Virus genome (UHGV): UHGV-1976995
Origin: a virus
DNA length: 34,204 nt
Reading direction: 5' to 3' (one strand)
Part shown: piece after piece, positions 2,456-32,829 of the stretch
How positions within the stretch are numbered: the stretch's first letter is position 1
How the letters are laid out: each line of letters begins with the position of its first letter
The notes under the pieces: model-generated
Databases searched by the model: none
What the model was told of the DNA's origin: nothing
What the model saw: the letters and a program-made list of their open reading frames with translations, nothing else
Translations under genes and position numbers: made by a program

Positions 2456-2962
2456 TTAAATTGCGTGAATAGCGTGACGAGGGAAGGGGAGAGTTACTGG
2501 TGCAAAGGGTATATCGTCGTCAAAATCCATCGGAGGTTCGTTGTGTTGTGCTGGTGATGATTGCTGCTGTGGCTTCTGTGATTGCCTGCTGGCTGCTTGT
2601 TGTTTGCTGTCGCCAATGCTGCCAAGCATTTGCATCACGCCATTAATTCCGACATGAACCTCGGCTGTGTAACGGTCTTGCCCTGACTGGTCTTTCCACT
2701 TTCTGGTTCTCAGCATTCCCTCGAAATAAATCTGATCACCTTTTTTCACATACTGCCCCACGACCTCAGCCAGTTTCCCGGATACAGCAACACGATGCCA
2801 TTCAGTCAATTCCTTTTGCTCGCCAGTATTTTTATCTCGCCATTGTTCTGACGTGGCTATTGTCAGGTTAGCGAACGCTGTTCCTGATGGTGAGTATCGA
2901 ACTTCCGGGTCTTGTCCTACCCGACCAAGGATAATCACCTTATTTACGCCTCTGCTTGCCAT
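2456..2962 (-). CDS. ssb: single-stranded DNA-binding protein
   Basis: N-terminal OB-fold signature ([18 protein letters not shown]...WHRVAV), Gln/Pro-rich linker and acidic C-terminal tail ending DDDIPF. Confidence 0.9.
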
Positions 2963-3670
2963 CTATGCCGCCTGTTTTAGTTCGTTAACTCTGATGTTCA
3001 TTACCTGAATGCATTTAGCCTGCGCCTCCTCGTTGCCAGCCATTAATTGCCAGTCACGCTGATAACGCTCGATGAGTTTTTTCTTGTCAGTTTCTGTTGA
3101 CGCATAATCGCTGAAGTCTTTCAGGATTTGTTCGCAGTCAACCGATGGAGATTTCTGGTTGGTATTTTCTGGTGATGGTTTGTTATCTGATGCTGGGATT
3201 GCCCATCCCGGCAGCGATGGAGGGGACCAGTAAAATCCTGTTCCATCCTTCAGTTTTGCCCTGTGCCACCCCTGCTTTTTATCGAGAGATGTTTGTGCGA
3301 AACCTTCCTCAAGGTTATACAGATACCGACCGATTCCCCACTGAACGGCAGCACGCTTCATTGCACCGGAACGACCACCTTTGACGGCTTCTACCTGCGT
3401 GTTTTCAGCAGCATCCCATTTGGTTACCCATTCGGAATCAATCTTGATTGATATGCCGCATTCAACTCCGCCGTTGTTGGGAATATCGCGGTATTCATTG
3501 CGCCATCCTGCTTTGCCGCAAACATCGTCCAGGCGTTTCATGATTGCCCGGTTCGTGACATAAGCCAGCACCATAGCCCACACCTTGCCATCGCGTGTTT
3601 TACCGCTTTGCTGTATTCGCCATTCGATATCTTCAGGGCTGAATGGCTCATCGAATTTGTTCAAATCCAT
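2963..3670 (-). CDS. single-strand annealing recombinase, Rad52/Erf-type
   Basis: 235-aa protein immediately upstream of ssb in a lambdoid recombination module; start 1 nt from the ssb start; family assignment from memory of Rad52-like phage SSAPs. Confidence 0.55.
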   Translation of the reverse strand: MDLNKFDEPFSPEDIEWRIQQSGKTRDGKVWAMVLAYVTNRAIMKRLDDVCGKAGWRNEYRDIPNNGGVECGISIKIDSEWVTKWDAAENTQVEAVKGGRSGAMKRAAVQWGIGRYLYNLEEGFAQTSLDKKQGWHRAKLKDGTGFYWSPPSLPGWAIPASDNKPSPENTNQKSPSVDCEQILKDFSDYASTETDKKKLIERYQRDWQLMAGNEEAQAKCIQVMNIRVNELKQAA

Positions 3671-15687: not shown

Positions 15688-16147
15688 TCAACGTAAGGCG
15701 TTCCTCGATATGCTGGCGTGGTCAGAGGGAACTGATAACGGACGTCAGAAAACCAGAAATCATGGTTATGACGTCATTGTTGGCGGAGAGCTATTCACTG
15801 ATTACTCCGATCACCCTCGCAAACTTGTCACGCTAAACCCCAAACTCAAATCAACAGCAGCCGGACGTTACCAGCTTCTTTTCCGTTGGTGGGATGCCTA
15901 TCGTAAGCAGCTTGGCCTGAAAGACTTCTCTCCCAAAAGCCAGGACGCTGTGGCATTGCAGCAGATTAAAGAGCGTGGCGCTTTACCGATGATTGATCGC
16001 GGTGATATTCGTCAGGCTATCGACCGTTGCAGCAATATCTGGGCTTCACTTCCGGGGGCTGGTTACGGTCAGTTTGAGCATAAGGCTGATAGCCTGATTG
16101 CAAAATTCAAAGAAGCAGGCGGAACGGTCAGAGAGATTGAGGTATGA
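15671..16147 (+). CDS. R: endolysin, lambda R type lytic transglycosylase
   Basis: 158 aa, near-identical to lambda R from memory; overlaps the holin stop. Confidence 0.9.
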
Positions 16148-16581
16148 GCAGAGTCACCGCGATTATCTCCGCTCTGGTTATCTGCATCATCGTCAGCCTG
16201 TCATGGGCTGTTAATCATTACCGTGATAACGCCATGACCTACAAAGAGCAGCGCGATAAGGCCACATCCACAATCGCTGACATGCAGAAGCGTCAACGTG
16301 ATGTAGCAGAACTTGACGCCAGATACACAAAGGAGCTTGCTGATGCTAACGCGACTATCGAAAGCCTCCGTGCTGATGTTTCTGCTGGGCGTAAGCGCCT
16401 GCAAGTCGCCGCCACCTGTGCAAAGTCAACGACCGGAGCCAGCGGCATGGGCGATGGAGAAAGCCCAAGACTTACAGCAGATGCTGAACTCAATTATTAC
16501 CGTCTCAGAAGTGGAATCGACAGGATAACCGCGCAGGTTAACTACCTGCAGGAATACATCAGGACGCAATGCCTTCGATGA
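16144..16581 (+). CDS. Rz: i-spanin Rz
   Basis: N-terminal transmembrane helix then coiled-coil; N-terminal 30 aa match lambda Rz, the remainder diverges. Confidence 0.8.
16343..16528 (+). CDS. Rz1: o-spanin Rz1 (lipoprotein) embedded in the +1 frame of Rz
   Basis: ATG at 16343 with an AGGAG RBS; signal peptide with lipobox VSAC followed by a Pro-rich segment. Confidence 0.6.
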
Positions 16582-16741
16582 TAGCGATAATTTTACTCAT
16601 CATCCTTCACATCTGGCTCTGTAGACAGGGTGATGATCACTTCTGGAGTGAATCCAGATTAAACATCTCATTGCTGATGCTTGATATTGAGCATATGGCG
16701 CGCGGTAAGGGGCTGCGTTGAGATAAGAGCCAGTTCATTAC

Positions 16742-16778
16742 AAAGCCTATCTACGGGTGGGCTTGATAATGAAACCGG
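16742..16778 (+). repeat. left copy of an imperfect direct repeat (about 35 bp) flanking the Gp49-like gene
   Basis: TTACAAAGCCTATCTACGGGTGGGCTTGATAATG; right copy at about 17345..17385 (TTACAAAAGCCATTCCCTACAGAGTGGCTTTGATAATGG). Confidence 0.4.
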
Positions 16779-16959
16779 AATTTATTCTGGGCAACCAGTT
16801 ACGGCAGTACAGCGAAACAACCCAAGCCAGTAAGTGGGGAAATAACACTGGCAGCCACTGAAAGATGAACCTCCTGCCTTATGGCAAAAAAGATTCTTTG
16901 TGGTGGCGGACTGATGGAAAGACATCCTAATCAAGCAACCACTCCACAGGGTCATAATT

Positions 16960-17340
16960 ATGAACGACCAGCAAATCGAAAAAGAAATCGTTGAGAAAGG
17001 CACAACGGCACCGCGAATCACTCCGCAGCACATCGAAGACGTGATTAAAAGCGAGCATTACTTTACTGCTTATGATGGACGTAATGGTGCCATCTCCAGC
17101 AACGAATATTGTGGCAGGGAAAAACCAGAAGAAGGCGATCGTGATTTATCACCATTGAAGTTGCTCACTTTCTGCGTACTGGTGCTGAAGAATGGCTTCA
17201 CCGTCACCGGAGAGAGTGCCTGTGCAAGCCCGGAAAACTTTGATGCAGAAATTGGTCGGAAGATTGCCCGGCAAAATGCTGTAAACAAAATCTGGATGCT
17301 CGAAGGTTACTTGCTGAAGCAGAAGCTAAGCGAACAGTAG
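16960..17340 (+). CDS. Gp49-like phage protein, function unknown
   Basis: 126-aa ORF between lysis and packaging genes, flanked by imperfect direct repeats; family assignment from memory, low certainty. Confidence 0.45.
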   Translation: MNDQQIEKEIVEKGTTAPRITPQHIEDVIKSEHYFTAYDGRNGAISSNEYCGREKPEEGDRDLSPLKLLTFCVLVLKNGFTVTGESACASPENFDAEIGRKIARQNAVNKIWMLEGYLLKQKLSEQ

Positions 17341-17344
17341 TTAT

Positions 17345-17385
17345 TACAAAAGCCATTCCCTACAGAGTGGCTTTGATAATGGCTT
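17345..17385 (+). repeat. right copy of the direct repeat flanking the Gp49-like gene
   Basis: Shares TTACAAAGCC...GGCTTTGATAATG with the left copy; each copy can fold as AAAGCC/GGCTTT stem-loop. Confidence 0.4.
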
Positions 17386-17443
17386 ATACCCTACACGGGA
17401 TAACTTAACTAATATCCCTTTTAACGGATAAACGGAGCCAACA

Positions 17444-17686
17444 ATGGCAGAGATTATTCCCATGACTGAAGAACAGAAATTCCAGTTAGAGATTTACAAA
17501 CTGGTCATGAACCAGAACGCAGCTGCAGAGGAAGCATTTCAGTTCATTGGCACTGACGAACTGAAGCTTGAGCTATTCAAAATTCACTTCCAGTCAGGCG
17601 GCGCTAATTCGGATATCACGACCCGCACTATCGAAGCGGTGCGTAAATCGAAGGAAGCGTTAGACCTGTTCACCACCGGAGCATGA
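17444..17686 (+). CDS. hypothetical protein (80 aa)
   Basis: Track ORF; AACGGAG RBS; acidic. Confidence 0.45.
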   Translation: MAEIIPMTEEQKFQLEIYKLVMNQNAAAEEAFQFIGTDELKLELFKIHFQSGGANSDITTRTIEAVRKSKEALDLFTTGA

Positions 17687-17687
17687 T

Positions 17688-17867
17688 GTGAGCCGCGTAA
17701 TCAATTTGGGTAAGGAGAAGAAATTCCCAATTACTCAAGAGCTATACGAGCGGCTGGAAAGCGTCATCCATGATTACGATGGTGAAATCAGTTTATGCGA
17801 GGCGATTGGCACACTCGAATTGCTGAAGCAGTCACTGATTGAAGGCGCGAAAGAGTCCTCAGCCTGA
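17688..17867 (+). CDS. small hypothetical protein (59 aa, GTG start)
   Basis: Hand-translated from a GTG 2 nt after the upstream stop; weak GGAG RBS. Confidence 0.25.
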   Translation: MSRVINLGKEKKFPITQELYERLESVIHDYDGEISLCEAIGTLELLKQSLIEGAKESSA

Positions 17868-17890
17868 AATAACAACTAAGTGAGATGAAT

Positions 17891-18379
17891 ATGGCAGCAC
17901 CAAAGGGCAACCGATTTTGGGAGGCCCGCAGTAGTCATGGGCGAAACCCGAAATTCGAATCGCCTGAGGCGCTGTGGGCTGCTTGTTGTGAATACTTCGA
18001 GTGGGCTGATGATAACCCGCTATGGGAGGGTAAGGTATTTTCATATCAGGGAGAAATAATTAAGGCTAATGTCCCTAAGATGCGAGCCATGACTATTTCA
18101 GGATTGTGCACCTTCCTTGATATCACCAGGCAAACATGGGGAACCTTCCGGTCAATGGAAGGTTTTTCTGACGTCACATCACGAGCGGAAGACATCATCT
18201 ACGACCAGAAATTCTCTGGAGCAGCCGCTGACCTTCTCAACGCTAACATCATCGCCCGTGATTTGGGCCTCAAAGAGCAGTCGCAAGTTGAAGACGTGAC
18301 ACCTGATAAGGGAGATCGCGATAAGCGACGCTCTCGTATCAAGGAGCTATTCAACCGTGGAACTGGACGCGATTCTTGA
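17891..18379 (+). CDS. terminase small subunit (P22 gp3-like)
   Basis: N- and C-terminal thirds match P22 gp3 from memory, middle segment differs; start set to the second ATG by RBS spacing. Confidence 0.8.
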
Positions 18380-32270: not shown

Positions 32271-32636
32271 ATGAAAAAAGTTAACATTGGAAACGTACCA
32301 AAGATGCTCGTTCCGCTCTTTGAGAGCGGTACAATTGTGTTTTGTAGAGACTTTCCAGAATGGCAACGCCTGCATCAAAAACTTGGCGTTGACGTGCATG
32401 ACTCGGACGCCAACGGAGCGTCTCATACAATGAGTAGCGAGAATGGTGTTTTGCATGTGATAGGCGTGTTCAATGGCAAACTATCTACTATTGCCCATGA
32501 GTGCGCTCACATGGCATTCGATATCTGCTCAAGGGTAGGTGTTGATGTTGAACCAGGAAGAGCCAACGAGACTTACTGCTACTTAATGAGCAGGCTTGTT
32601 GAGTTCTGCGAGCGACATATCAAAAAGCCGGAGTGA
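32271..32636 (+). CDS. small HExxH-motif protein (putative metallopeptidase-like), cargo gene
   Basis: 121 aa with HECAH at residues 86 to 90 of the track translation; no strong RBS at either candidate start. Confidence 0.5.
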   Translation: MKKVNIGNVPKMLVPLFESGTIVFCRDFPEWQRLHQKLGVDVHDSDANGASHTMSSENGVLHVIGVFNGKLSTIAHECAHMAFDICSRVGVDVEPGRANETYCYLMSRLVEFCERHIKKPE

Positions 32637-32645
32637 CCCGGCTTG
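32624..32645. terminator. hairpin between convergent cargo genes (possible bidirectional terminator)
   Basis: AAGCCGG-AGTGAC-CCGGCTT with A-rich 5' flank and GATTATTACTTTTT 3' flank; the HExxH gene stop lies in the loop. Confidence 0.45.
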
Positions 32646-32649
32646 ATTA

Positions 32650-32829
32650 TTACTTTTTGCTGTCTGGAGTTCGCTTATCCAATACCCAGCCATGACCTGG
32701 CTTTGTTGTTGGTGGAAGCCTTTCGTTGTCCTTGACGGTTGCAAAATTGTCTTTCTTACCGCCGCGTGGGCCAACTTCTTGGTATATTCCGCCGTTTTTT
32801 CCTGTGTTTTCACCTGGTTTTTTCGCCAT
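32650..32829 (-). CDS. YjzC-like small protein (59 aa), cargo gene
   Basis: Track ORF trimmed to the ATG at 32829 behind GAGGT; pattern GENTGKNGGIYQEVGPRGG...ERLPPTTKPGHGW resembles the YjzC-like family as I remember it. Confidence 0.45.
   Translation of the reverse strand: MAKKPGENTGKNGGIYQEVGPRGGKKDNFATVKDNERLPPTTKPGHGWVLDKRTPDSKK

What the first reader, a model, noticed from the sequence alone, without database searches (positions are those of the whole stretch)
16742..17385. Gp49-like gene bracketed by 35 to 40 bp imperfect direct repeats that can fold as stem-loops
The motif TTACAAAGCC...GGCTT(T)GATAATG occurs just upstream (about 16742..16778) and just downstream (about 17345..17385) of the 16960..17340 ORF. 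Direct repeats flanking a single gene suggest a cassette acquired or exchanged by recombination at these sites, or paired regulatory RNA structures. The 380-bp gap between Rz and this gene has no convincing ORF.
Basis: seen in the sequence. Interest (0 to 1): 0.45.

Follow-up and report, generated by a model that had tools for sequence, protein, structure and literature searches.

The report
Conserved stem-loops bounding phage accessory-gene slots
The two repeats are real copies of an unannotated, widespread RNA-type stem-loop that sits at the ends of swappable accessory-gene slots between the lysis and packaging genes of lambda-like phages, here beside an anti-defence (Acb4-family) gene.

Summary
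The window is an Sf6-like, P22-like phage. The two repeats exist: A at 16733-16774 and B at 17339-17384. They resemble each other far more than chance allows, and both fold into strong hairpins on the sense strand.

They belong to a family of about 40-nt stem-loops. The lower stem is nearly fixed (YCAUUR...YAAUGR), followed by a CA/GA internal loop and a 9-10 bp upper stem. The upper-stem sequence varies (31 distinct versions, 23 distinct 5' arms) but stays paired through compensatory changes and G-U pairs. That pattern points to an RNA in the late mRNA. No Rfam family matches, and no phage or E. coli record I read annotates it.

Copies occur only between the lysis and packaging genes. They are present in 146 phage records. 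The module that carries them matches about 22% of complete E. coli genomes.

Homology between phages breaks at the hairpin bases, often with the upstream stop codon touching the helix. Natural A/B hybrids exist that lack the interval between the copies.

B is the right end of the slot holding the Gp49-like gene (PF13876, the Acb4 anti-CBASS family). The left end of that slot is at 16926/16927, not at A. A closes a separate upstream slot that is empty here.

The RNA's function is inferred, not shown.

The parts
16144..16581 (+). Rz (i-spanin) gene, last gene of the lysis cassette. Context only: it shows that the + strand is the late-operon sense strand.
   Evidence: ORF list. 97% identical to Sf6 gene 63.
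16569..16721 (+). Homologue of Sf6 gene 65: a 50-aa small hydrophobic protein. It is the conserved left anchor of variable slot 1.
   Evidence: PHROG 11822, E = 7e-38.
16733..16774 (+). Stem-loop A. Lower stem CAUUA/UAAUG, CA/GA internal loop, 9-bp upper stem AAGCCUAUC/GGUGGGCUU with two G-U pairs, and a cUACGg tetraloop. It is the right-hand boundary of slot 1, which is empty in this window. The first 9 nt (CATTACAAA, 16736-16744) are the crossover point with cargo-bearing relatives.
   Evidence: Fold -22.4 kcal/mol, z -4.9. Covariance-model hit of 60.5 bits, E = 2e-14. Homology breakpoints at 16744 and 16736.
16775..16926 (+). 'Block 2': conserved, apparently non-coding spacer found between hairpins A and B/B' in many lambdoid phages, HK97 included. 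It is not unusually structured, and its short ORFs are not conserved.
   Evidence: 96-100% identity across phages with different flanks. Fold z = -0.9. The ORF starting at A's AUG is 30 aa here, 3 aa in Sf6 and 21 aa in ST64T.
16927..17340 (+). Cargo of slot 2: a 33-nt leader plus the 126-aa Gp49/Sf6-gene-66-like gene (16960-17340). The gene belongs to PF13876, the Acb4 anti-CBASS sponge family. The whole stretch is absent from Kapi1, HK620, E212, CUS-3, Sf101, epsilon34 and P22.
   Evidence: Presence/absence boundaries at 16926/16927 and 17339/17340. Pfam E = 3e-35. PF13876 equated with Acb4 in PMC11722364. Weak PDB match to Acb4, 9e4w, E = 0.007.
17339..17384 (+). Stem-loop B. 8-bp lower stem AGUUAUUA/UAAUGGCU that includes the AG of the stop codon, CA/GA internal loop, 10-bp upper stem AAAGCCAUUC/GAGUGGCUUU, and a 6-nt loop. 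It is the right-hand boundary of slot 2. The B variant travels with occupied slots; B' marks empty ones.
   Evidence: Fold -20.6 kcal/mol, z -4.9. Covariance-model hit of 57.9 bits. Comparison with B' shows 4 compensatory pair changes. B follows 4 different cargos or a bare terminator.
17385..17686 (+). Leader plus the DUF2560 gene (17444-17686; hkbM / P22 orf80 homologue). This is the conserved right anchor that I used to collect 80 related loci.
   Evidence: Pfam PF10834, E = 1e-43. Related loci.

Best explanation
The two repeats are two members of a family of about 40-nt stem-loops. The family is conserved in the late operon of P22-like and other lambdoid phages, between the lysis genes and the packaging genes.

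Shown:
- The element is a helix of about 20 bp in total. The lower stem and the 2x2 CA/GA internal loop are nearly invariant in sequence. The 9-10 bp upper stem changes sequence freely but stays paired through compensatory substitutions and G-U pairs that work only on the sense strand.
- It lies directly after the stop codon, or the intrinsic terminator, of whatever accessory gene is upstream.
- Sequence homology between phages starts and stops at its two bases.
- Copies recombine with each other.

Inferred:
- It acts as an RNA hairpin in the late polycistronic mRNA. Most likely it is an intercistronic processing or 3'-end-protecting structure. Its size and internal loop match a substrate of the host's double-strand-specific RNase III, as at the T7 intercistronic sites.
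- It is the only conserved sequence amid unrelated cargo. It therefore works as the short homology patch ('boundary sequence') through which accessory-gene cassettes are gained, lost and exchanged by general or phage-recombinase homologous recombination.

In this window, B closes the slot that holds an Acb4-family anti-CBASS gene. A closes an upstream slot that is empty here but holds Rha, KilA-N/hkbL, Tad2-like and other genes in relatives (GIY-YIG and some Rha cargos also fill this slot, but those phages lack hairpin A).
For: Structure is selected.
- On 29 distinct variants, 97.7% of cells are paired, against 34-47% when partners are slid.
- 8 of 15 pairs show changes on both sides.
- The covariation score is 0.451 against 0.255 in shuffles, and 0 of 500 shuffles reach it.
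- A wider collection gives 52 unique hairpins with 23 distinct 5' arms. 78 of their 494 upper-stem pairs are G-U.
- Control: among unique matches to the fixed frame CCATTACA-N20-32-GATAATGG, 0 of 120 in unrelated bacterial genomes fold this way, against 24 of 72 in viral contigs.

The sense strand and RNA are favoured.
- RNA folds are -22.4 and -20.6 kcal/mol on the + strand and weaker on the - strand.
- With DNA parameters the folds are only -8.3 and -7.4 kcal/mol.
- All 128 strong covariance-model hits in 630 kb are on the late-gene strand.

Location is specific.
- The window holds only these two copies; the next best hit scores 11 bits.
- Every copy in 84 loci lies between Rz and the DUF2560 gene.
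- The same position holds in HK97, ES18 and Stx2 phages.
- Newly found stem classes all lie after the lysis genes, and upstream of a terminase or DUF2560-like gene wherever the downstream gene could be identified.

The hairpins behave as boundaries.
- Homology breakpoints fall at 16744, 16736 and 17339/40.
- At least 8 different left flanks and at least 20 different right flanks occur.
- The upstream stop codon abuts the helix in 20 of 76 unique contexts and lies within 10 nt in 40 of 76.
- A/B hybrids lacking the interval exist.
- Mixed lower-stem combinations (ATTGCA...GATAATG, ATTACA...GACAATG) indicate crossovers at varied points.

Concept: short conserved boundary sequences in lambdoid phages, attributed to Clark 2001 and to Susskind and Botstein 1978 as cited in PMC3029335.
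Against: - No transcript mapping, cleavage or stability data exist for this element, so the RNA function is inferred from covariation and position alone.
- The HK97 copy of A has three mispaired positions (41.6 bits), so the structure is not indispensable everywhere.
- Lambda and the K-12 DLP12 prophage lack the element.
- Near-identity of the arms could partly reflect recent shared ancestry or gene conversion rather than constraint.
- The left end of the Gp49-like slot (16926/7) is sharp without any hairpin, so hairpins are not required to make a junction.
- Many variants are closely related, so the covariation counts overstate the number of independent events.
Confidence: 0.6

Rival explanations
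1. Translational device. The hairpin sequesters a Shine-Dalgarno-like run and a conserved AUG in its 3' arm. A ribosome terminating at the abutting upstream stop codon melts the 5' arm and frees that start. Translation downstream, of a mini-ORF or the next gene, is thereby coupled to translation of the cargo gene.
For: - The AUG in the 3' arm is invariant.
- It lies 7-8 nt after a G-rich run. The predicted anti-SD pairing is -6.2 to -7.7 kcal/mol for A-type and the L027/L067-type stems. Only 8% of ATGs in the window reach -6 kcal/mol.
- The stop codon touches the helix in 20 of 76 contexts.
- In L111 the mini-ORF ends 1 nt (a single U) before the small-terminase start.
Against: - The ORF opened by the AUG is not conserved: 3 codons in Sf6, 30 here, 21 in ST64T, 9 after B, and 4 and 15 in other classes.
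- B and B' have only weak SD-like runs, -2.7 to -3.7 kcal/mol.
- About 15 contexts have a terminator rather than a translated ORF directly upstream.
- The AUG may be conserved simply because it pairs with CAU in the lower stem.
Confidence: 0.17
2. Structure-specific DNA recombination site, analogous to integron attC. The + strand folds when single-stranded, and a recombinase exchanges ORF-plus-hairpin cassettes at a fixed point.
For: - The architecture parallels attC: conserved ends, a variable paired centre, strand-specific folding, and a position at the 3' end of promoterless ORFs that share one orientation.
- Junctions fall exactly at the hairpin base in dozens of unrelated contexts.
Against: - No recombinase gene is linked to the locus.
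- Copies occur at one locus only, not in arrays elsewhere.
- Crossovers fall at several positions: after CATTACAAA in the 5' arm, inside the 3' arm, and at either base.
- Slot 2's left junction has no hairpin.
- DNA folds are weak, about -8 kcal/mol.
- The arm sequences are unlike the attC core sites (from my own knowledge of attC).
Confidence: 0.07
3. No present function. The hairpins are relics, for example decayed terminators or a duplicated fragment, that persist by descent. Palindromes are mechanical hot spots for template switching and deletion, which would place junctions at their bases.
For: - The HK97 copy of A is decaying.
- Lambda and DLP12 do without the element.
- Most copies are near-identical, consistent with recent spread.
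- Palindrome-associated deletion endpoints are well known (from my own knowledge).
Against: - 31 distinct upper stems (23 distinct 5' arms) are all perfectly paired, with compensatory changes and only sense-strand-compatible wobbles.
- The hairpins are kept even when the adjacent cargo is deleted down to its last 30 nt, as in ST64T.
- There is no U-tract, so they are not recognisable decayed terminators.
Confidence: 0.1
4. Atypical transcription terminators or insulators for the accessory genes, acting on either strand.
For: - They sit at the 3' ends of genes.
- On the - strand a short UUUGU follows the stem.
- Antisense accessory genes of the 'moron' type (P22 pid, the DUF3950 gene in Stx2 phages) lie to the right in some phages.
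Against: - There is no U-tract on the + strand (GAUAAUG follows the stem), and the terminator scan does not call them.
- On the - strand the stems carry A-C mismatches and B' has no U run.
- Genuine intrinsic terminators occur immediately next to the hairpins in several phages, which would make the hairpins redundant as terminators.
Confidence: 0.05

Closest known systems
Short conserved 'boundary sequences' (bsq) of lambdoid phages. Concept from Clark et al. 2001 (HK620) and the Susskind-Botstein linker idea, as cited in PMC3029335. bsq features are annotated in the Sf6 and CUS-3 records.
   Same: - A short sequence is conserved among phages whose flanking DNA is unrelated.
- Mosaic breakpoints coincide with it.
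- It plausibly serves homologous recombination between modules.
   Different: - These two hairpins are not among the annotated bsq features of the stretches of the Sf6, HK620 and CUS-3 records that I read.
- They are structured, with covariation, which implies a function of their own beyond providing homology.
RNase III processing hairpins between cistrons of phage T7 mRNAs (R1.1 type). From my own knowledge.
   Same: - A helix of about 20 bp split by an internal loop into upper and lower stems.
- A position between cistrons of a long phage transcript.
- Sequence conserved around the internal loop, while the upper stem varies.
   Different: - No cleavage data exist for these hairpins.
- The internal loop here is a symmetric 2x2 CA/GA.
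- The phages and sequences are unrelated.
- Only one or two copies occur per genome.
REP/BIME intergenic palindromes of enterobacteria. From my own knowledge.
   Same: - Imperfect palindromes directly downstream of stop codons.
- They can stabilise upstream mRNA or affect termination of translation.
- They act as recombination substrates.
   Different: - The sequence is different.
- REP elements occur in hundreds of chromosomal copies.
- This element is confined to one prophage locus, with a median of one place per E. coli genome that has it.
Integron attC sites. From my own knowledge.
   Same: - Conserved ends, a variable but paired centre, and folding on one strand.
- Placement at the 3' end of each promoterless cassette ORF.
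   Different: - No linked integrase or attI.
- No cassette arrays.
- Crossover points vary.
- Different core sequences.
- Weak DNA folding.
Phage 'morons' (Juhala et al. 2000, as described in PMC2629481 and PMC3029335)
   Same: The Gp49-like/Acb4-family gene is present in some relatives and absent from others at exactly the same site in the late operon.
   Different: - No sigma-70-like promoter and no intrinsic terminator flank it here, so it is probably read from the late transcript.
- Neighbouring cargos in relatives (57-aa ORF, DUF551) do carry terminators.

Membership tests
Lambdoid boundary sequence | A short sequence conserved between phages whose DNA on one or both sides is unrelated | tested here: met
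   At least 8 different left flanks and at least 20 different right flanks surround a conserved hairpin of about 40 nt.
Lambdoid boundary sequence | Homology breakpoints coincide with the sequence | tested here: met
   Breakpoints fall at window positions 16744, 16736 and 17339/40 in 12 reference phages.
Lambdoid boundary sequence | Recombination actually takes place within it | tested here: met
   Natural hybrids (A hairpin joined to B's flank) occur in L039, L073, Stx2a_WGPS8 and 15 IMG/VR loci, and mixed lower stems occur. This is inferred from sequences, not observed in crosses.
Intrinsic (Rho-independent) terminator | A G+C-rich stem followed directly by a U-tract | tested here: not met
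   GAUAAUG follows both stems, and the terminator scan does not call either hairpin.
RNase III processing site (T7 type) | A helix of about 20 bp with an internal loop, located between cistrons | tested here: met
   5-8 bp lower stem, 2x2 loop, 9-10 bp upper stem, positioned between the cargo stop codon and the next ribosome-binding site.
RNase III processing site (T7 type) | Cleavage by RNase III in vivo or in vitro | not testable with these tools
   No transcript-end or rnc-mutant data are available. The literature searches found none for this locus.
Integron attC | A linked integron integrase and attI, with cassettes in arrays | tested here: not met
   No recombinase lies among the annotated genes of 16 reference loci. 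Copies occur only at this one locus.
Integron attC | A single fixed crossover point in the 3' core site | tested here: not met
   Junctions are seen after CATTACAAA in the 5' arm, inside the 3' arm, and at both bases.
Moron | A gene present in some and absent from other related phages at the same site | tested here: met
   Window 16927-17340 is absent from Kapi1, HK620, E212, CUS-3, Sf101, epsilon34 and P22.
Moron | Its own promoter and terminator | tested here: not met
   No sigma-70-like promoter or terminator on the + strand in 16000-18200. This was a consensus scan only.
Any Rfam family | Covariance-model match | tested here: not met
   No match to either hairpin at E <= 10. The only hit is an insignificant Proteo-phage-1 match in block 2 (16.8 bits against a 42-bit threshold).
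Acb4 / PF13876 (the cargo gene) | Match to the Pfam model above its gathering score | tested here: met
   120.9 bits against a 27-bit cut-off, E = 3e-35. PF13876 is the Acb4 family according to PMC11722364.
Acb4 / PF13876 (the cargo gene) | Binds cyclic nucleotide immune signals and blocks CBASS | not testable with these tools
   The only direct link to the solved SPO1 Acb4 structure is a weak sequence match (9e4w, E = 0.007).

The most novel reading that the evidence does not exclude
The hairpins are not just passive homology patches. They would be the recognition sites of a structure-directed exchange mechanism, attC-like or based on template switching at the folded sense strand. That mechanism would actively assemble and shuffle anti-defence gene cassettes (Acb4-family, Tad2-like and others) at the lysis-packaging junction of lambdoid phages. 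This would amount to a phage counterpart of the integron.
Probability: 0.07. Interest if true: 0.85.

Novelty: new member of a known kind. Interest (0 to 1): 0.5.

Why it matters
- Mosaicism. Whether phage mosaicism arises at short conserved boundary sequences or by illegitimate recombination is a long-standing question, and clear boundary sequences are rarely identifiable (PMC3029335). This is an unusually clean example: a conserved island of about 40 nt with both flanks variable, natural recombinants between copies, and independent evidence from covariation that the island is kept for a function of its own.
- Gene discovery. The element marks a hot spot whose cargo includes known counter-defence families (Acb4/PF13876, Tad2-like). 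The hairpin could therefore serve as an anchor for finding new anti-defence genes among the small unknown ORFs that abut it.
- Annotation. The module that carries the hairpins matches about 22% of complete E. coli genomes, and the hairpins occur in model phages (P22, Sf6, HK97, HK620, Stx2 phages). No Rfam family matches them, and no record I read annotates them.

Tried and rejected
- Rfam search of 16400-17900 at E <= 10: nothing for either hairpin.
- Promoter and terminator scan: neither hairpin is called.
- Promoter reading. ATTACA and GATAAT resemble -35 and -10 hexamers, but they are 22-26 bp apart, outside sigma-70 spacing. Rejected.
- Small-protein reading. The ORF opened by the hairpin AUG and the MAKKILCGGG... 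ORF in block 2 are not conserved. ST64T 'orf118' is an ORF that happens to read through hairpin B' into the DUF2560 gene.
- Block 2 as a structured RNA: z = -0.9 on the + strand and -0.7 on the - strand, not significant.
- Transposable-element reading. The 9-bp CATTACAAA at both ends of slot-1 inserts looks like a target duplication. It is better explained as the crossover patch, because what follows it is a conserved terminator and then at least 5 different cargos.
- Search for a copy in well-studied systems, to borrow transcript data: none in lambda or in K-12 DLP12.
- Genome-contig scan with the frame pattern. It was useful only as a negative control, with 0 of 120 folding.
- Literature searches found no description of this hairpin. 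They did locate P22 pid as a neighbouring antisense moron (PMC8835761).
Full report
**What the window is.** The region belongs to an Sf6-like member of the P22-like phages (Lederbergvirus). Window 16500-17900 is 97% identical to Shigella phage Sf6 over 99% of its length. The gene order on the + strand is as follows:

| Feature | Coordinates |
|---|---|
| Holin | 15364 (start) |
| Endolysin | 15671 (start) |
| Rz | 16144-16581 |
| 50-codon homologue of Sf6 gene 65 | 16569-16721 |
| Gp49-like gene (Sf6 gene 66, PF13876) | 16960-17340 |
| DUF2560 gene (hkbM / P22 orf80) | 17444-17686 |
| Small ORF | 17688-17867 |
| Small terminase | 17885 (start) |
| Large terminase | 18357 (start) |

The finding therefore lies in the late operon, in the variable stretch between the lysis and packaging modules.

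**Checking the observation.** Both copies are present.
- A is CATTACAAAGCCTATCTACGGGTGGGCTTGATAATG, with its core at 16736-16771.
- B is TTATTACAAAAGCCATTCCCTACAGAGTGGCTTTGATAATGG, at 17341-17382. Its lowest pairs use the AG of the TAG stop.
- Their local alignment scores 19. Dinucleotide shuffles give 7.0 +/- 1.3, and 0 of 5000 reach 19. B is the best non-self match to A in the whole window.
- As sense-strand RNA they fold at -22.4 and -20.6 kcal/mol (z about -4.9, 0 of 200 shuffles). The antisense strand folds less well.
- One correction: the 'gap without a convincing ORF' contains the conserved gene-65 homologue (PHROG 11822, E = 7e-38).

**Anatomy and evidence for selection on structure.** A and B share one architecture with a third variant, B', which occupies B's position in phages that lack the Gp49-like gene. 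B' reads TTATTGCAGAGRCCATTCAATGAGTGGTCTCGAYAATGG.
- The architecture is a lower stem (Y)CAUUR / YAAUG(R), a symmetric CA/GA internal loop, a 9-10 bp upper stem, and a loop of 3-6 nt. In A the loop is cUACGg.
- B and B' differ by four double, pair-preserving changes. Other variants differ by G-U wobbles.
- I collected 80 related loci from the IMG/VR viral-contig collection, anchored on the DUF2560 gene, and aligned 29 distinct variants.
- On that alignment, 97.7% of cells form pairs, against 34-47% when the 3' partners are slid by 1-3 columns. 8 of 15 pairs show changes on both sides. The covariation score is 0.451 against 0.255 in shuffles, with 0 of 500 reaching it.
- A scan of IMG/VR for the fixed frame CCATTACA-N20-32-GATAATGG brought in many new upper stems. 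Examples are AAGCGUCC/GGGCGCUU, GAGGCUGUU/AGCAGCUUC and GCAGGCAUUC/GAGUGCCUGC.
- In total I found 52 unique hairpins with 23 distinct 5' arms. 78 of their 494 upper-stem pairs are G-U.
- As a negative control, the same frame pattern in unrelated bacterial genomes gave 120 unique chance matches, none of which folds this way. In viral contigs 24 of 72 do.
- Caveat: many variants are close relatives, so these counts overstate the number of independent events.

**Which strand, and RNA or DNA.** Sense-strand RNA is the favoured form; this is an inference.
- The wobble pairs are G-U on the sense strand and would be A-C mismatches on the other strand.
- All 128 strong covariance-model hits in 630 kb of related loci lie on the late-gene strand.
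- With DNA parameters the folds are only -8.3 and -7.4 kcal/mol on the + strand, and -6.6 and -6.2 on the - strand.
- A double-stranded palindrome or a cruciform is therefore disfavoured. Sense-strand single-stranded DNA cannot be excluded.

**Where the element occurs.**
- In this window there are only the two copies, at 60.5 and 57.9 bits. The next best hit scores 11 bits.
- In the 84 related loci, every copy lies between Rz and the DUF2560 gene.
- Hairpin A is also present in 146 phage records and is never annotated in them. These include siphoviral lambdoids such as HK97, HK022, mEp213, ES18 and Stx2-converting phages.
- HK97 has A (partly decayed, 41.6 bits) and B' (62 bits) 195 nt apart. 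They are followed by the HNH gene gp74 rather than DUF2560.
- The A-spacer-B' module, or part of it, matches 1196 of 5426 complete E. coli genomes (345 over at least 80% of its length). In 9 of the 12 hits listed, no feature is annotated under the match.
- Lambda and the K-12 DLP12 prophage lack it.
- No Rfam family matches it.

**The mosaic map.** I compared the window with 12 reference phages by BLAST; the breakpoints are sharp.
- The left block (Rz end plus gene 65) ends at 16744, inside CATTACAAA.
- The next block starts at 16736, at the same 9 nt.
- That block ends at 16926.
- The next conserved block starts at 17340, the base of B.

Slot 1 lies between gene 65 and hairpin A.
- It is empty here and in Sf6.
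- Elsewhere, CATYACAAA is followed by a genuine intrinsic terminator (AGCCTCGCATTCGCGGGGCTTTTTTAT), then one of at least five different sequences, and then hairpin A.
- Cargos seen upstream of A:
  - KilA-N plus hkbL
  - Rha-type proteins
  - a Tad2-like protein (PF11195)
  - ORFs of 62, 80-91 and 95 aa
- GIY-YIG (epsilon34) and the Rha genes of Sf101, CUS-3 and P22 occupy the same slot, but those phages lack hairpin A and rejoin block 2 at 16794-16801.

Slot 2 has a fixed left junction...GGAAAGACATC| at 16926. It is followed by one of these:
- B' directly, which is the empty state
- the Gp49-like gene
- a 56-57-aa ORF
- a 71-aa DUF551 gene
- another short ORF

All occupied versions end in the B variant.

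Among 74 usable loci the arrangements are:

| Arrangement | Loci |
|---|---|
| A + B' | 22 |
| A + B | 20 |
| B' only | 17 |
| B only | 8 |
| Other | 3 |
| A only | 2 |
| A-hairpin / B-flank hybrid | 1-2 |

**Evidence that the hairpins are recombination joints.**
- Across 76 unique upstream contexts, the stop codon of an unrelated upstream ORF lies exactly 2 nt before ATTACA in 20 cases. That means it touches the 6-bp lower stem. It lies within 10 nt in 40 cases.
- About 15 further contexts have a terminator T-tract plus ATTGCC directly before the hairpin.
- A-type hairpins also have at least 20 different right flanks. The 40-nt element is thus a conserved island with both sides variable.
- Hybrids in which an A-type hairpin is joined to B's right flank, with everything between lost, occur in L039, L073, Stx2a_WGPS8 and 15 IMG/VR loci.
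- In L073 the switch from A-type to B'-type sequence lies inside the 3' arm.
- Mixed lower stems also occur, such as ATTGCA...GATAATG and ATTACA...GACAATG.
- Crossovers at several positions fit homologous recombination or gene conversion within a short patch, not a fixed site-specific cut.

**Most likely mechanism.**
- Shown: a structure-constrained, sense-strand stem-loop family. It is confined to the lysis-packaging junction and sits at the 3' end of accessory genes. It coincides with mosaic breakpoints, and its copies recombine with each other.
- Inferred: the hairpin works in the late mRNA as an intercistronic element.
- The helix of about 20 bp with an internal loop, and the sequence conservation concentrated around that loop rather than in the upper stem, are what T7's RNase III sites look like (my own knowledge). 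Cleavage there would leave the upstream cistron capped by a protective 3' hairpin.
- A plain 3'-exonuclease barrier of the REP type is the simpler variant of the same idea.
- The hairpin is retained whatever the cargo, so it provides the homology through which cassettes are exchanged. This is the 'boundary sequence' idea of Clark et al. and of Susskind and Botstein (as cited in PMC3029335).

**Rivals.**
- Translational coupling or occlusion. It is supported by the invariant AUG and by an SD-like run in A-type stems (-6.4 kcal/mol), together with the abutting stop codons. It is weakened by the non-conserved downstream ORFs and by the weak SD-like runs in B and B'.
- An attC-like DNA site. The resemblance in architecture is real. 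However, there is no linked recombinase, copies occur at a single locus, crossover points vary, and slot 2 has a hairpin-less left junction.
- A functionless relic. The compensatory changes argue against it.
- A terminator. There is no U-tract, and real terminators sit beside the hairpins.

**The cargo.** The Gp49-like protein is a confident PF13876 member.
- PF13876 has been defined as the Acb4 family of anti-CBASS nucleotide sponges (PMC11722364).
- The direct match to the solved SPO1 Acb4 structure is weak (9e4w, E = 0.007).
- Relatives carry a Tad2-like gene in slot 1, and P22 carries the antisense gene pid immediately to the right of B' (PMC8835761; sequence).
- The locus is therefore an accessory, counter-defence hot spot.
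- No promoter or terminator flanks the gene here, so it is probably expressed from the late transcript.

**Verdict.**
- The cassette interpretation is partly supported. The hairpins are real boundary elements with alternative cargo between and beside them. They are the right-hand ends of two adjacent slots, not the two ends of one cassette.
- The element is an undescribed member of a known kind: a lambdoid boundary sequence that is also an intercistronic stem-loop. Its molecular function is still untested.

Noticed in passing
window 16960-17340: The 'Gp49-like' gene belongs to PF13876, which a 2024 preprint defines as the Acb4 family of anti-CBASS nucleotide-sponge proteins. Alleles in related phages range from 112 to 126 aa, and their N-terminal sequences differ. 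Sf6 gene 66 is still annotated as hypothetical.
   Followed up: partly
L002 (phage Huey) 1804-2304; also Kapi1, IME10, L019, L087: Slot 1 upstream of hairpin A holds a 159-173-aa protein with a Tad2-like (Thoeris anti-defence 2) domain, PF11195, E = 2e-24. PHROG 9467 matches both this protein's N-terminus and the Acb4-family C-terminus. That suggests fused or related sponge proteins.
   Followed up: partly
window 16569-16721: A conserved 50-aa hydrophobic ORF (Sf6 gene 65 homologue) overlaps the end of Rz by 13 nt. Its function is unknown. Read-through of its TGA would end at the TGA TAA inside hairpin A.
   Followed up: no
L001 (Sf6) 1786-1842, between window 16784 and 16786: Sf6, HK620 and IME10 carry an extra segment of about 57 nt right after hairpin A. 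It contains its own inverted repeat (TTTACAT...ATGTAAA) and is absent from this window.
   Followed up: no
L219 (ST64T) 1647-2003: ST64T 'orf118' starts in the conserved spacer, reads through hairpin B', and runs in frame into the DUF2560 gene. It looks like an annotation artefact caused by a leader deletion. The same record keeps only the last 30 nt or so of hkbL before hairpin A.
   Followed up: partly
L004 (P22) about 2505-3155: In P22 the antisense ORFan gene pid, with its terminator, is inserted immediately to the right of hairpin B' (junction GGCTTATACC|ATCGACTGG). This gives a third variable slot at the same locus.
   Followed up: partly
L041/L082 3850-3900; L034, L070 3880-3900: Several phages have an intrinsic terminator whose T-tract runs straight into TTATTGCC plus the hairpin. 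In L041 the whole interval between gene 65 and hairpin B is just this terminator.
   Followed up: no
window 32619-32651: A G+C-rich hairpin, AAAAAGCCGGAGTGACCCGGCTTGATTATT, superficially resembles the motif. The covariance model gives this interval no hit at E <= 10, so it is not a family member. It is probably an ordinary terminator.
   Followed up: partly
window 16821-16856: A weak, insignificant Rfam match to Proteo-phage-1 RNA (16.8 bits against a 42-bit threshold, E = 5) lies in the conserved spacer between the hairpins.
   Followed up: no
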